A stretch of 42,914 nucleotides of DNA from NCBI GenBank assembly GCA_041691695.1, contig JBEPUG010000005.1:1-42914 (forward strand). Reading direction: 5' to 3'. The notes under the pieces are model-generated. The model was not told the origin of the DNA. It saw only the letters and a list, made by a program, of their open reading frames with translations, and ran no database searches. The translations under genes were made by a program, and so were the position numbers. This DNA is from Flavobacteriales bacterium (GTDB lineage Bacteria > Bacteroidota > Bacteroidia > Flavobacteriales_F > PHOS-HE28). Positions 35,863 to 38,658 of the stretch are shown here, in pieces; position 1 is the stretch's first letter, and every line of letters starts with the position of its first letter.

Positions 35863-37146
35863 ATGGCAGTGATCAATTTTGTAGAGGAGCTCCGCTGGCG
35901 CGGATTGTTGCAGGACAGCACGCCTGGCGCGGAGGAGCATTTGATGAAAGGCCCGGCGAGCGGTTACATCGGCTTCGACCCCACGGCGGATTCGCTCCAT
36001 GTGGGTAATCTGGTGCAGATCATGATCCTCGTGCATTTCCAACGCTGCGGCCACAAGCCGGTGGCGTTGGTAGGCGGGGCCACGGGCATGGTGGGCGATC
36101 CCAGCGGGAAGAAGAGCGAGCGCAACCTGCTCGACGAAGATGCACTTCGCCACAATCAAGCATGCGTGCAGAAGCAACTGGAGCGCTTCCTTGATTTCAA
36201 CAGCGGTAGCAACGCCGCGCGCATGGTGAACAACTACGACTGGTTCAAGGACATGGGCTTCCTGCGCTTCATCCGCGACGTGGGCAAGCACATCACGGTG
36301 AACTACATGATGGCGAAGGACAGCGTGAAGAGCCGCTTGGAGTCCGGGCTCTCGTTCACCGAGTTCAGTTACCAGCTCGTGCAGGGTTATGACTATTGGT
36401 GGCTCAATCAGCACGAGGAATGCACGGTGCAGATGGGTGGCAGCGACCAATGGGGCAACATCACCACCGGCACGGAACTGATCCGGCGCATGGGTGGCAA
36501 CGAGGCTTACGCGATCACAACGCCGCTACTCACCAAGGCGGATGGCAGCAAGTTCGGCAAGAGCGAAAGCGGCAACGTGTGGCTCGACGCCGAGCGCACC
36601 TCACCCTACAAGTTCTATCAATTCTGGTTGAACGCGAGCGATACGGACGCGGCGAAATTCGCGGCCATTTTCACGCCGTGGTCACAGTCGGAGGTGAAGG
36701 CCTTGATTGCGGATCACTCCAAGGCACCGCATGAGCGGAAACTGCAGAAGGTTGTCGCGGGCCACATCACTAGGCTGGTGCATGGCGCGGAGGAATTGGG
36801 GGGCGCGATCCAAGCCTCAGAGGGGCTGTTCTCGGTAAGCACAAAGGAGGAAATGCAGGGTCTCCCAAAGAAAGTCTGGAATCAGATTTTCGATGAAACG
36901 CCGAACACGACGATTACTTTGGAAGACCTTCAGAAAGGTATTCCCGTCGTGCAGTTTCTTTCGGGGTCAATCGGTTTTCTACCATCGGGAAGCGAGGCGA
37001 GGCGAGCAATCAAAGAAGGATCCGTCCATATCAGTGGCTCCTCCGTTTCGGACACGTACGTCGTCAAAGAGGATGCATTGGTGCATGGTCAATACATCCC
37101 TGTCAAACGGGGAAAGAGGAATTACTTCTTGGTGAAGGTGGTGTGA
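35863..37146 (+). CDS. tyrS: Tyrosine--tRNA ligase
   Basis: YIGFDPTADSLHVGN (HIGH), QGYD, QMGGSDQWGNI, KFGKSE (KMSKS), S4-like C-terminus. Confidence 0.97.
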   Translation: MAVINFVEELRWRGLLQDSTPGAEEHLMKGPASGYIGFDPTADSLHVGNLVQIMILVHFQRCGHKPVALVGGATGMVGDPSGKKSERNLLDEDALRHNQACVQKQLERFLDFNSGSNAARMVNNYDWFKDMGFLRFIRDVGKHITVNYMMAKDSVKSRLESGLSFTEFSYQLVQGYDYWWLNQHEECTVQMGGSDQWGNITTGTELIRRMGGNEAYAITTPLLTKADGSKFGKSESGNVWLDAERTSPYKFYQFWLNASDTDAAKFAAIFTPWSQSEVKALIADHSKAPHERKLQKVVAGHITRLVHGAEELGGAIQASEGLFSVSTKEEMQGLPKKVWNQIFDETPNTTITLEDLQKGIPVVQFLSGSIGFLPSGSEARRAIKEGSVHISGSSVSDTYVVKEDALVHGQYIPVKRGKRNYFLVKVV

Positions 37147-37149
37147 GTC

Positions 37150-37446
37150 ATGTTCCGCAGACCATTTTCATTTACGGGCCGAAGCGGGAGGTTTGAGTTT
37201 GCGATTGCCTCTTTGCTCTTTGTGGGCTGTCCAATTTCGATAGACCTTATCTACGCTAGTCTATCTCCACCTTGGTATTGGGGGTTAATAGAGATTCCTC
37301 TTGTTTGGCTGTTCATTGCTCAAGGACTCAAGCGATGCCATGATATAGGAAAGCCTTGGCGGTGGCTAATCCATCCGTTCGGCTTGTTTTGGTTGCTCTT
37401 CACCAAGAGCGAGGCTCAAGCGAACGAATTTGGTCCAGCGCGCTAG
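37150..37446 (+). CDS. DUF805-family membrane protein (98 aa), low GC
   Basis: FSFTGR.GR.EF, KRCHDIG, terminal N.FGP; hydrophobic segments; AT-richer codons. Confidence 0.8.
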   Translation: MFRRPFSFTGRSGRFEFAIASLLFVGCPISIDLIYASLSPPWYWGLIEIPLVWLFIAQGLKRCHDIGKPWRWLIHPFGLFWLLFTKSEAQANEFGPAR

Positions 37447-37456
37447 TTCTGTTCAG

Positions 37457-37498
37457 CAACGCGACAAGAAGAACTACTTCTTGGTGAAGGTGGTCTGA
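37457..37498 (+). pseudogene. Orphan duplicate of the tyrS 3' end (QRDKKNYFLVKVV*)
   Basis: 37466-37498 matches 37114-37146 at 30/33 nt, including a 20-nt identical core TACTTCTTGGTGAAGGTGGT and the stop codon. Confidence 0.8.
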
Positions 37499-37572
37499 TC
37501 TCCTCCTCGGATCCGCGCTGCGCCGCTTGCGTTTAAGGCGTTGCGTTCCCGTTGCGTCGTTGCAGTTGGCTT

Positions 37573-38610
37573 TCACTCCACCAACAAATTGCATCCCCTC
37601 AGGTCGCTGTTGTCGAAGCGCCCCAACACTTCGAAGGATCCATCGGAATGAATGCGCCCGAGGTCTTGCGTGGAGATGAACGGGCAGCTGGCGATGTTGC
37701 ACAGGTCGATCACATCGATGCCGCCGGTGCGCCCCGCCGGAACACGTGAGAAGGGATCATTCACATCCCGCGTCAGTACCCGCATCCATGGCGGACAGCG
37801 ATAGCGCCCTACGCCCTGCGACCACGCTTGTGATAGCAGTTCCGTCATGCCGTACTCGCTGTGGATATGCTCCACGGAGAATGCCTGCTTCAGGATGCGG
37901 TGCAATTCATCGCGCACCATTTCCGGTCGTCGTCCTTTCATCCCGCCGGTCTCCATGATCACCGTATGCTGCAATGGCATCGGATGTTTTTCCGCAAGGT
38001 CAAGCAACGCGAACGGTACGCCCAGAAGCAGGGTTTGCACGCCGTCGTCCTCACTTGAGCGCAGAAGATCAGCCAAGCCGTCGAGGTCGTGCAGCCATGT
38101 GCCGCTTTGGCTGTCGCCGCTGCGGGCGATGAGCTTCTCCGCCATGTAGACCAAGGAACTTCCGGGTCGCTCCAAGTAAGCGGGTAGAAGCGCCAGCACG
38201 CGCCATCGCTCCGGCAGCCCATATTCCGCACTGAAAGAGGTGAGGAATGAGCGCTCGTACAATTCGGGCCATGGCACCTGGTGCGTGCTGGTGACCGGAC
38301 CGGTGGTGCCGCTGCTGGTGAATTGCAAGTGTTTCGTCCCGATCTTCTCGGGAGACGCATCCAGTCCATCCAAGAGCACGCGTCGGTTGCGGAAAAGCCC
38401 TATTGGGAGATAAGGAATGCGTTCCACAGAGGTGATGCTGGCGGGGTCGATCCCCAAGGCTTGCAGGTATTCGCGATATACAGGGTTATGGGCGGCGTGC
38501 AATGCGAACAGTTCCAGTGCCAACTTCGAAAAGGCTTCTGAGCCATCGACTCGGAACGGCTTTTCAAGAAGCGCGGGGGCCACAATGGGGGAGGGCGCTG
38601 CGCCGTTCAT
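37573..38610 (-). CDS. LuxE-like acyl-protein synthetase / acyl transferase
   Basis: N.VY..Y, IPYLPI..F, FTSSGTTG P-loop, SSL.YM, ETGGMKGRR, SEYGMTELLSQA, T.DLG, GRFD.SDLRGC. The first ~170 aa of the 516-aa ORF are antisense to the next gene. Confidence 0.85.
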   Translation of the reverse strand: MNGAAPSPIVAPALLEKPFRVDGSEAFSKLALELFALHAAHNPVYREYLQALGIDPASITSVERIPYLPIGLFRNRRVLLDGLDASPEKIGTKHLQFTSSGTTGPVTSTHQVPWPELYERSFLTSFSAEYGLPERWRVLALLPAYLERPGSSLVYMAEKLIARSGDSQSGTWLHDLDGLADLLRSSEDDGVQTLLLGVPFALLDLAEKHPMPLQHTVIMETGGMKGRRPEMVRDELHRILKQAFSVEHIHSEYGMTELLSQAWSQGVGRYRCPPWMRVLTRDVNDPFSRVPAGRTGGIDVIDLCNIASCPFISTQDLGRIHSDGSFEVLGRFDNSDLRGCNLLVE

Positions 38611-38658
38611 ACTTTTGTGGGAGCGATGAAGAAAGACCGTTCGGCCGTTGCAAAAGTA
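38610..38658. promoter_or_regulatory. Face-to-face pair of TACTTTTG -7 boxes
   Basis: + strand TACTTTTG at 38610-38617 and - strand TACTTTTG (CAAAAGTA) at 38651-38658. Confidence 0.6.

What the first reader, a model, noticed from the sequence alone, without database searches (positions are those of the whole stretch)
36780..37498. Apparent 3'-end cassette swap in the essential gene tyrS, carrying a DUF805 cargo gene
Seen: the tyrS end (KRGKRNYFLVKVV*, to 37146) recurs 352 nt later as QRDKKNYFLVKVV* (30/33 nt identical). The orphan copy uses host-type C-ending codons (CGC, AAC, GTC) and is one base from QRGKKNY, the ending I recall as typical for Bacteroidota TyrRS. The expressed last ~120 codons (S4-like tRNA-binding region) and the DUF805 gene between the two copies are visibly AT-richer than the tyrS 5' part. 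No integrase or transposase is present. Inference: a foreign [variant C-terminal domain + cargo gene] unit recombined in and displaced the native end. Housekeeping-gene termini could thus act as integrase-free capture sites that diversify an essential enzyme, for example against phage or toxin targeting, while placing the cargo under its promoter. The direct repeat would also allow the cargo to loop out.
Basis: partly seen in the sequence, partly recalled or inferred. Interest (0 to 1): 0.7.

Follow-up and report, generated by a model that had tools for sequence, protein, structure and literature searches.

The report
Swapped tyrS tail with displaced end
In this uncultured Flavobacteriales bacterium the last quarter of the essential tyrosyl-tRNA synthetase gene was replaced by a very distant version that came with a small membrane-protein gene, leaving the old gene tip behind as a stub; it is a clear scar of gene swapping of a kind already known.

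Summary
tyrS (35863-37146) is a chimera. Up to about 36815 it is 84-88% identical in DNA to its four closest relatives. From there to 37455 lies a 640-nt AT-richer block where those relatives have 285 nt. Native sequence resumes exactly at 37456 with the last 43 nt of a genus-type tyrS.

The block encodes a complete but very divergent tRNA-binding domain. It is 38% identical to the closest relative, against 94% in the catalytic part. No relative above 46% was found anywhere searched. A DUF805 gene follows 3 nt after the stop.

The same footprint recurs:
- DUF805 sits right after tyrS in 6 of 130 other genus genomes, some with orphan tyrS ends, and one holds an array of them.
- C-terminal domain swaps without cargo are common in the genus (18 of 73 close pairs).
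- Other genes of this genome also carry orphan ends.

No recombinase was found in the 25 window ORFs scanned.

The best reading is import by the host's own recombination from an unsampled relative. A decayed site-specific island is the main rival. The adaptive story (escape from phage or toxin) is untested.

Earlier notes of this scan describe the same footprint on other DNA (thrS, ilvE, rplA, primase). It is a new variant of a known kind.

The parts
35863..37146 (+). Chimeric tyrS (427 aa), the only TyrRS match in the genome
   Evidence: PF00579 E 1.2e-77 and PF22421 (SYY C-terminal domain) E 1.3e-11. One match in G000, which is 98% complete.
35863..36815 (+). Native part of tyrS: catalytic domain and linker
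   Evidence: Residues 1-310 are 94% identical to G014. blastn homology to G055, G065 and G043 ends at 36815, and to G014 at 36799, at 84-88%. At identical residues 201/272 codons are the same as in G014.
36816..37146 (+). Foreign C-terminal (S4-like, tRNA-binding) domain, here called CTD', with its own stop codon. The left joint lies between 36789 and 36816.
   Evidence: Residues 321-427 are 38% identical to G014, while G014 is 68-82% identical to 14 of 17 other genus members there. Nucleotide identity is 30-50% over codons 311-420. GC3 is 0.596. Only 8/30 codons are the same at identical residues. It keeps 21 of 32 highly conserved columns.
37106..37146 (+). Expressed copy of the tyrS end repeat
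   Evidence: The last 7 codons are 95-100% identical in DNA to relatives.
37150..37446 (+). Cargo gene: DUF805 small membrane protein (98 aa), starting 3 nt after the tyrS stop
   Evidence: PF05656 E 3e-9. It is 43-52% identical to the tyrS-linked DUF805 genes of six genus genomes. GC is 0.493.
37447..37455 (+). 9-nt spacer; the right joint of the foreign block is 37455|37456
   Evidence: Four relatives and a contig of a related organism in run X2 match from 37456 onward. The X2 contig continues upstream into a native-type domain.
37456..37498 (+). Orphan: the displaced native last 13 codons of tyrS plus stop, in the native position before the convergent gene
   Evidence: 86-92% identical to the tyrS ends of G055, G014 and G043. 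One mismatch to the genus pattern. The same left boundary is seen in G127 and G112.
37573..38640 (-). Convergent LuxE-like acyl-protein synthetase gene, the conserved right-hand neighbour of tyrS in the genus
   Evidence: PF04443 E 3.5e-10. It was found within the roughly 1.3-3.6 kb held downstream of tyrS in 41 of 49 genus loci examined, at gaps from -235 to 1261 nt, 16 of them overlapping tyrS.

Best explanation
A piece of DNA from an unsampled, fairly distant relative was recombined into the chromosome by the host's own recombination machinery, with no dedicated recombinase. The piece carried the 3' third of that relative's tyrS (a long-diverged tRNA-binding domain with its own stop codon) and the DUF805 gene that follows it.

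The left crossover used homology inside tyrS, at codons about 310-318. The right end was joined 43 nt before the native stop. Two routes are possible:
- an illegitimate join (homology-facilitated illegitimate recombination), or
- a homologous crossover in an orphan end that the donor locus already carried.

The result is that 285 nt of native domain were replaced by 640 nt, the incoming domain became the working end of the only TyrRS, DUF805 came to lie 3 nt behind it, and the last 13 native codons stayed behind as a dead stub.

Shown: the chimera, both joints, the displaced end, recurrence in the genus and at other genes, and the absence of a recombinase hit in the 25 window ORFs scanned.

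Inferred: the recombination route, the donor, that the chimeric enzyme works (it is the only copy), and co-transcription of DUF805.
For: 1. Sharp joints. Homology to the four nearest relatives ends at 36799-36815 and resumes at 37456; they have 285 nt where the window has 640. A related organism's contig in run X2 reads native domain sequence straight into 37456.

2. The block is long-diverged, not locally accelerated. Synonymous sites are saturated (8/30 same codons against 201/272 in the catalytic part). GC3 falls from 0.81 to 0.60 and 0.51.

3. A second tyrS end exists, so a tyrS end was brought in.

4. Repeat lengths and boundaries vary between events: 41-43, 59, 112 and 206 nt. No recombinase family was hit in 25 window ORFs or in the 10 cargo ORFs among the 15 ORFs; a RAYT-like ORF flanking the C67 locus has a sub-threshold Y1 transposase hit.

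5. Domain swaps without cargo or orphan are common in the genus. Among 73 pairs with at least 88% identical catalytic parts, domain identity is 69-96% in 55 pairs and 37-54% in 18. This includes near-complete assemblies G048 (1 contig), G062 (2) and G016 (4), and variant domains there are also AT-richer.

6. At the carboxyltransferase gene on contig C67 the orphan is closer to relatives (89-97%) than the expressed end (81-84%), as displacement predicts.

7. Homology-facilitated illegitimate recombination is an established route (PMC3240628, abstract seen in a search listing).
Against: - The donor was not found. The foreign domain has no relative above 46% in 130 genus genomes, none in word-based searches of 5.8 billion proteins, at most 43% among the top full-length hits in 1.84 billion representatives (50% over one 68-residue partial hit), none in viral contigs and at most 41% in metagenome contigs.
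- The microhomology expected at an illegitimate joint cannot be checked without the donor.
- The orphan's left boundary (GCAACGCG) is the same in the window and in G127 and G112, which lie in another clade. This fits a defined site, or common descent of the block, better than random illegitimate joins.
- An AU test on the domain tree does not reject placing this domain with its catalytic-part clade (p 0.456), so tree topology alone proves nothing.
- Competence or conjugation in this lineage was not examined.
- All genomes but a few are MAGs.
Confidence: 0.6

Rival explanations
1. It is the remnant of a site-specific integrative element of the icd/e14 kind. Such an element carried a surrogate tyrS 3' part in its attachment site and integrated at about codon 315, so that its own domain completed tyrS and the native 3' part moved to the far end. 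A later deletion removed the integrase, the rest of the element and all but 43 nt of the native 3' part.
For: - The architecture is the same as icd-e14-icdC: the gene extends into the element and a C-terminal pseudogene lies at the other end (PMC13626634, passages read).
- The orphan boundary is identical in two separate clades.
- G140 holds a tandem array of cargo units, each followed by a tyrS end, as seen with repeated integration at one site.
- The cargo is lower in GC.
Against: - No integrase or other recombinase family was hit in the 25 window ORFs scanned or in the cargo ORFs of G140 and G075.
- Cargo units are as small as 0.3-0.4 kb.
- Repeat lengths differ (41-43, 59, 112, 206 nt), and in G075 the repeat runs 40 nt past the stop codon.
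- The surrogate is 38% identical to the native domain, whereas the icd and icdC proteins differ by only two substitutions.
- Many domain swaps in the genus have neither cargo nor orphan.
Confidence: 0.2
2. There were two unrelated events. An old insertion of a DUF805 cassette, made by single-crossover (Campbell-type) recombination of a circular intermediate at the conserved tyrS tip, created the 41-nt duplication as in G127 and G112. Separately, a homologous allelic replacement changed the C-terminal domain alone.
For: - G127 and G112 show a clean insertion of about 388 nt with a 41-43-nt duplication and a native-type domain.
- Domain swaps occur without cargo.
- The last 13 codons of the expressed gene keep native-like codons (7/11), as if a crossover or gene conversion had occurred there.
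- Jackson et al. proposed circular intermediates for tip displacement in rhs genes (PMC2935791, passages read).
Against: - The foreign domain and DUF805 form one contiguous low-GC block with no native-type stretch between them apart from the conserved tip.
- Two events at one place are less economical than one.
- The window's DUF805 is the most divergent of the seven (43-52%), matching the great divergence of the domain.
Confidence: 0.12
3. It is an artefact: a metagenome misassembly that spliced another organism's tyrS 3' end and DUF805 gene into this contig.
For: - The genome is a MAG of 274 contigs.
- tyrS is a conserved gene.
- The only run that holds the stretch in full may be the source sample.
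Against: - Logan's separate assembly of run X1 gives one contig across 36300-37267 and one across 37242-38000. Both have 0 differences and an even depth of 7.7 and 7.2.
- A misassembly would need two chimeric joints, the second returning exactly to the native tyrS tip.
- The exact shared run between the two ends is only 20 nt.
- Comparable arrangements occur in six other genomes, including large contigs.
Confidence: 0.03
4. The C-terminal domain diverged in place through local acceleration or relaxed selection, and only DUF805 plus a short end repeat was inserted.
For: - The domain sits on a long branch that attaches nowhere in particular.
- The AU test does not reject its native clade (p 0.456).
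- No donor was found.
Against: - Synonymous sites are saturated in the domain but not in the adjoining catalytic part.
- Nucleotide identity steps from about 85-90% to 30-50% between the 10-codon windows starting at codons 301 and 321.
- GC3 steps by 0.21.
- The same low-GC variant domain type is shared by G048, G062 and G066, which belong to different catalytic-part clades. That shows transfer.
Confidence: 0.05

Closest known systems
C-terminal displacement at rhs loci (Jackson et al. 2009, BMC Genomics 10:584, PMC2935791; passages read)
   Same: - A conserved core and a variable C-terminal part evolve independently.
- The incoming tip has its own GC signature and is followed by a small gene.
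- The former tip is pushed downstream as a silent fragment.
- Arrays of displaced tips build up (seen here in G140).
- Host homologous recombination was proposed, not a dedicated recombinase.
   Different: - The gene here is an essential housekeeping enzyme, not a polymorphic toxin.
- The small downstream gene is DUF805, with no evidence of an immunity role.
- The window's displaced tip is only 43 nt and has no core fragment in front of it.
Integration of prophage e14 into icd of E. coli K-12, with the icdC pseudogene (Hill et al. 1989 as cited in PMC13626634; passages of the latter read)
   Same: An essential or central protein-coding gene ends in element-supplied sequence. Its displaced native 3' part lies beyond the inserted DNA as a direct repeat.
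   Different: - e14 is a 15-kb prophage that excises site-specifically; no recombinase hit was found here.
- The icd and icdC proteins differ by two substitutions, whereas here the swapped domain is 38% identical.
- The displaced part here is truncated.
Homology-facilitated illegitimate recombination (PMC3240628; only the abstract in a search listing was seen)
   Same: One end of incoming linear DNA recombines by homology and the other illegitimately. A stretch of recipient DNA is thereby replaced by a foreign stretch of another length, as here (285 nt by 640 nt).
   Different: It is known from laboratory transformation and conjugation. Here it is only inferred, and the donor and the microhomology at the joint are unknown.
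Earlier notes of this scan on displaced gene ends in other genomes (thrS, ilvE, rplA, primase, an SPFH gene)
   Same: The footprint is the same: surrogate end, cargo, orphan end, no integrase. The proposed cause, one-sided host recombination, is also the same.
   Different: Those are unchecked AI notes on other phyla. Here a whole functional domain of 109 or more codons was exchanged for a 38%-identical one, and domain exchange is shown to recur across a genus.

Membership tests
Bacterial TyrRS with S4-like C-terminal domain | Class I catalytic domain (PF00579) plus the SYY C-terminal domain (PF22421) | tested here: met
   E 1.2e-77 and 1.3e-11 (44.7 bits against a cut-off of 27). 21 of 32 highly conserved columns of the C-terminal domain are kept, including the SxxEARRA and GK.NYFL motifs.
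DUF805 (PF05656) | Pfam score above the gathering threshold | tested here: met
   37.8 bits against 25.7, profile positions 2-111 of 111.
rhs-type C-terminal displacement | Core and C-terminal part are evolutionarily decoupled | tested here: met
   94% against 38% identity to G014. Of 73 close genus pairs, 18 have 37-54% identical C-terminal domains.
rhs-type C-terminal displacement | The incoming tip has a distinct GC signature | tested here: met
   GC3 is 0.81 in the core against 0.60 in the swapped domain.
rhs-type C-terminal displacement | The displaced tip is kept downstream, preceded by a fragment of the conserved core | tested here: not met
   Only the last 43 nt remain in the window and no core fragment precedes them. 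Longer fragments (59 and 206 nt; a further 198-204 nt by tblastn) occur in the G140 array.
rhs-type C-terminal displacement | A toxin tip with a cognate immunity gene | not tested
   TyrRS is not a toxin. The function of DUF805 is unknown and no binding or immunity test was run.
Site-specific integrative element with a surrogate 3' end (icd/e14 type) | An integrase or recombinase gene in or beside the insert | tested here: not met
   No recombinase family was hit in 25 window ORFs or in the 10 cargo ORFs scanned. A RAYT-like ORF flanking the C67 locus scored below the Y1_Tnp threshold.
Site-specific integrative element with a surrogate 3' end (icd/e14 type) | Direct repeats bound the insert, and the gene is completed by element sequence | tested here: met
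Site-specific integrative element with a surrogate 3' end (icd/e14 type) | A constant core or crossover point in independent insertions | tested here: inconclusive
   The boundary is the same in the window and in G127 and G112. The repeats are 59 and 206 nt in G140 and 112 nt in G075.
Site-specific integrative element with a surrogate 3' end (icd/e14 type) | Excised circular form and an empty site in the population | not testable with these tools
   Only contigs of the runs were available.
Homology-facilitated illegitimate recombination | Recipient DNA is replaced by foreign DNA of another length next to a homologous anchor | tested here: met
   285 nt were replaced by 640 nt; the anchor side is 84-88% identical to relatives up to 36815.
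Homology-facilitated illegitimate recombination | Microhomology between donor and recipient at the illegitimate joint | not testable with these tools
   The donor sequence was not found.

The most novel reading that the evidence does not exclude
In this Flavobacteriales genus the tRNA-binding domain of the essential TyrRS may exist as several old allelic types that are 50% identical or less. These types would be passed between species and kept by diversifying or frequency-dependent selection, for example because something (a phage protein, a toxin, a competitor's effector) acts on that domain. The tyrS end would then serve as a standing cassette slot without an integrase, in which a domain allele can travel together with a small membrane-protein gene such as DUF805.
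Probability: 0.12. Interest if true: 0.8.

Novelty: new variant of a known kind. Interest (0 to 1): 0.5.

Why it matters
The finding shows that an essential translation enzyme can have a whole functional domain exchanged for a 38%-identical one and still be the cell's only copy. In this genus such exchanges are frequent.

It also adds a well-documented case to a footprint that this scan keeps meeting: surrogate gene end, cargo, orphan end, no integrase. That footprint may be a general way in which bacteria and archaea gain accessory genes next to conserved genes without mobile-element machinery.

Practical consequences:
- tyrS is unsafe as a single-gene phylogenetic marker in this group.
- Orphan gene ends are useful markers of past recombination.

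If the several domain types are kept by selection, that would point to an unknown pressure on the tRNA-binding domain.

Tried and rejected
- **Search for the donor.** A word-based search of the domain region found only the window's own protein among 153 candidates. The domain alone against proteins of 63-203 aa scored nothing. HMMER over 1.84 billion representatives gave at most 43% among the top full-length hits and no hit at E 1e-30 or below. Viral contigs gave none. Metagenome contigs gave two loci at 38-41%. All 130 other genus genomes gave at most 46%.
- **DUF805 outside the genus.** All 31 loci lack tyrS within 2.5 kb, so they give no donor.
- **Tree test.** The AU test does not reject the native clade for the swapped domain (p 0.456), so the tree is uninformative for a single long branch.
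- **Co-change of tRNA-Tyr.** Rejected for this genome: its tRNA-Tyr is 100% identical to that of 18 other genus genomes, among them G014, G043 and G065, which carry the ordinary domain.
- **Promoter and terminator scan and RNA fold around the orphan.** No + strand promoter-like site between tyrS and DUF805 and no terminator. The fold z-score is -0.66. The scan does not model Bacteroidota promoters, so this says little.
- **Runs X2 and X3.** They hold only small shares of the stretch. Their contigs come from relatives and cover conserved parts, so no habitat or excision claim is made from them. No contig shows an excised form, but contigs cannot show absence.
- **sucD on contig C147.** No step in identity along the gene, and the orphan is not clearly more native than the expressed end.
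- **Literature.** Three searches found no report: tyrosyl-tRNA synthetase + C-terminal domain + recombination + mosaic; tyrS + integrase + attB + genomic island (0 papers); aminoacyl-tRNA synthetase + intragenic recombination + domain + horizontal gene transfer + chimeric (1 irrelevant paper). These show only that nothing was found with these terms in the library searched.
Full report
**What is there**

The window is the whole of contig C5 of a MAG: 274 contigs, 3.47 Mb, 98% complete, 2% contamination. Record titles of its genus relatives call them Flavobacteriales bacteria.

The features around the finding are:
- tyrS runs from 35863 to 37146 on the + strand (PF00579 and PF22421). It is the only TyrRS match in the genome.
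- Three bases after its stop, a 98-codon DUF805 gene starts (37150-37446; PF05656 above threshold).
- Nine bases after that gene, at 37456-37498, lies an orphan copy of the last 13 codons and stop of tyrS.
- The convergent LuxE-like gene ends at 37573.

No other direct repeat in 4 kb comes close; the next best is 27 nt at 74%.

**The orphan is the native end, in its native place**

In the genus, TyrRS ends ...LLQRGKKNYFLVKVV(G)*. A LuxE-like gene was found downstream of tyrS in 41 of the 49 genus loci examined, and in 16 of them it overlaps tyrS.

A degenerate 34-nt pattern of that end occurs, with at most 3 mismatches, in 117 of 131 genus genomes. Its reversed control occurs in none. The orphan has 1 mismatch and the expressed end 2.

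blastn against the four nearest relatives (G055, G065, G043, G014) shows homology from the gene start to 36815 (36799 for G014) at 84-88%. Then nothing matches until homology resumes at exactly 37456. The relatives have 285 nt where the window has 640.

A contig of a related organism in run X2 matches from 37456 onward (41 differences in 545 nt). Upstream it continues into a native-type domain sequence.

**The block is a long-diverged homologue**

- The window's TyrRS is 94% identical to G014 over residues 1-310 but 38% over residues 321-427. G014 is 68-82% identical there to 14 of the 17 other genus proteins compared; the exceptions are G016 (31%), G020 (48%) and G019 (51%).
- Nucleotide identity falls from about 85-90% to 30-50% at codons 309-320. 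It rises to 95-100% only in the last 7 codons.
- At residues identical to G014, 201/272 codons are the same in the catalytic part, 8/30 in the body of the domain and 7/11 in the last 13 codons.
- GC3 is 0.81, 0.60 and 0.51 for the native part, the new domain and DUF805. The neighbouring LuxE-like gene has 0.71.
- The new domain keeps 21 of 32 columns that are at least 85% conserved in 60 other TyrRS. These include the SxxEARRA and GK.NYFL motifs, but it departs at positions such as Q415K.
- Because this is the only TyrRS in the genome, it presumably works. That is an inference.

An AU test does not reject grouping this domain with its catalytic-part clade (p 0.456). A lone long branch fits anywhere, so the case for replacement does not rest on the tree. 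It rests on the joints, the synonymous sites, the composition and the second gene end.

**Assembly**

Logan's separate assembly of run X1, which may be the source sample, gives two contigs. One covers 36300-37267 and the other 37242-38000. Neither has a difference from the window, and their depths are 7.7 and 7.2. Both joints are thus bridged.

This is not fully independent evidence, since it may use the same reads. A misassembly would also need two joints, the second returning to the native tip. I rate it unlikely.

**The donor was not found**

The new domain has no relative above 46% identity in the 130 other genus genomes. Other searches gave:
- two word-based searches of 5.8 billion proteins: none;
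- 1.84 billion representatives: at most 43% among the top full-length hits, 50% over one 68-residue partial hit, and no hit at E 1e-30 or below;
- viral contigs: none;
- metagenome contigs: at most 41%.

**The pattern recurs in the genus**

*DUF805 behind tyrS.* DUF805 homologues at 44-52% identity occur in 6 of 130 other genus genomes (G064, G068, G112, G119, G127, G140). In all six the gene starts 3-5 nt after the tyrS stop. Outside the genus, 31 of 31 DUF805 loci lack tyrS within 2.5 kb.

On the tree of the catalytic part, five of these genomes (G119's tyrS is cut by a contig end and is not on the tree) and the window fall in at least three places. Close relatives without the gene include G018 beside G127, G044 beside G068, and G014, G043, G055 and G065 beside the window.

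*Orphan ends in relatives.* Against its sister G018, G127 shows a clean insertion of about 388 nt with a 41-43-nt duplication, and G112 one of about 396 nt. The left boundary of that duplication, GCAACGCG, is the same as in the window.

G140 holds an array that continues on a second contig:
- tyrS
- DUF805
- a 59-nt tyrS end
- a low-GC ORF
- a 206-nt tyrS end
- more low-GC ORFs
- a further tyrS domain fragment
- more low-GC ORFs
- native DNA

G075 has a 112-nt repeat that runs 40 nt past the stop codon. It brackets a ParE-type toxin-antitoxin pair.

*The slot is variable.* The gap between tyrS and the LuxE-like gene ranges from overlap to more than 1.2 kb.

*Domain swaps without cargo.* The C-terminal domain is exchanged often. 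Among 73 genus pairs whose catalytic parts are at least 88% identical, domain identity is 69-96% in 55 pairs and 37-54% in 18. G020 and G060, for example, are 99% and 47% identical in the two parts.

Variant domains are AT-richer in G016, G048, G058 and G062. Three of these (G048, G062, G016) are assemblies of 1-4 contigs, and in three (G048, G058, G062) tyrS overlaps the LuxE-like gene, leaving no room for cargo or orphan.

**The pattern recurs in this genome**

I took the 3' ends of 3,847 ORFs of at least 150 codons and looked for downstream copies on the same strand. Several orphan copies turned up:
- A carboxyltransferase gene on C67 is followed by a 121-codon low-GC ORF and a 63-nt orphan. 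Relatives lack the insertion. The orphan is nearer to relatives (89-97%) than the expressed end (81-84%).
- sucD on C147 has an orphan 3.6 kb downstream.
- A 223-codon gene on C157 has an orphan 2 kb downstream.
- A 35-nt perfect repeat on C48 lies 8.4 kb from its partner.

**Mechanism**

No recombinase family was hit in the 25 window ORFs scanned (4, 21) or in the cargo ORFs among the 15 scanned. The repeat lengths differ between events.

I therefore favour import by the host's own recombination. The left side is a homologous crossover in tyrS. The right side is either an illegitimate join or a crossover in an orphan that the donor already carried.

The shared GCAACGCG boundary in two clades fits the second variant, that is, common descent of a DUF805-plus-orphan block that spreads by homologous recombination. 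It also fits a defined recombination site. This keeps the decayed integrative element as the main rival.

The nearest published pictures are:
- C-terminal displacement at rhs loci (PMC2935791, passages read);
- icd-e14-icdC (PMC13626634, passages read);
- homology-facilitated illegitimate recombination (PMC3240628, abstract in a search listing).

Earlier notes of this scan describe the same footprint at thrS, ilvE, rplA, a primase gene and an SPFH gene in other phyla, with the same reading. They are unchecked AI notes and I do not count them as support.

**What remains open**

- Why several domain types that are 50% identical or less persist in one genus, although tRNA-Tyr is 100% identical between the window's genome and relatives with the ordinary domain.
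- Whether DUF805 has anything to do with TyrRS.
- Whether the repeat still mediates loss of the cargo.

**Verdict**

The mechanism is most likely ordinary recombination. This is a clear and unusually large example, a whole domain of an essential enzyme, of a known kind of scar.

Noticed in passing
L118:3153-3218 and L118:3626-3688 (G000 contig C67, 16652-16717 and 17125-17187): A carboxyltransferase gene (PF01039) is followed 7 nt later by a 121-codon low-GC ORF with no Pfam match, then by a 63-nt orphan copy of the gene's end. A RAYT-like ORF lies just beyond (Y1_Tnp E 5e-4, below threshold). Relatives lack the insertion.
   Followed up: partly
L119:810-887 and L119:4420-4498 (G000 contig C147): The sucD end recurs about 3.6 kb downstream, beyond a DUF2007-like ORF and an 817-aa T9SS-tagged protein gene.
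   Followed up: partly
L120:1739-1783 and L120:3821-3864 (G000 contig C157); L121:2100-2134 and L121:10547-10581 (G000 contig C48): Two more gene-end repeats occur in this genome. One is about 42 nt around a 656-aa TPR/PMT_2 gene. The other is a perfect 35-nt repeat 8.4 kb from its partner, with the second copy about 190 nt before tRNA-Ser.
   Followed up: no
L074:2019-4115 and L075:1-3600 (G140): Downstream of tyrS lies an array of at least three cargo units (GC 0.34-0.45, ORFs with no Pfam match), each followed by a tyrS-end fragment. The assembly breaks inside the repeat.
   Followed up: partly
L073:2348-3317 (G075): A 112-nt repeat (92% identical), made of the tyrS end plus 40 nt of REP-like downstream sequence, brackets a 3' fragment of the LuxE-like gene and a ParE-type toxin-antitoxin pair. 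No full LuxE-like gene was found in the 3.6 kb held downstream of tyrS.
   Followed up: partly
L010 / L078 (G016) and L019 (G003): G016's TyrRS has an even more aberrant C-terminal domain (24-33% identical to all others, GC3 0.59 against 0.88) with an 8-residue tail and no cargo. In G003 the tyrS stop codon is missing and the frame runs on for about 80 codons over the antisense strand of the LuxE-like gene.
   Followed up: no
L058 (G055) and L011 (G024), between tyrS and the LuxE-like gene: ORFs of about 150 aa here look like IS200/RAYT-type Y1 transposases. This is judged by eye from their sequence and was not scanned. REP-like palindromic repeats follow tyrS in G014 and G012.
   Followed up: no
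L076 and L077 (G120): Two different tyrS copies lie on two contigs of one 5-Mb MAG. This may be a mix of two strains.
   Followed up: no
window:16335-26738: A 3,468-aa protein with PKD-like repeats and a CHU_C type IX secretion signal is followed by a PorP/SprF gene and an OmpA-family gene.
   Followed up: no
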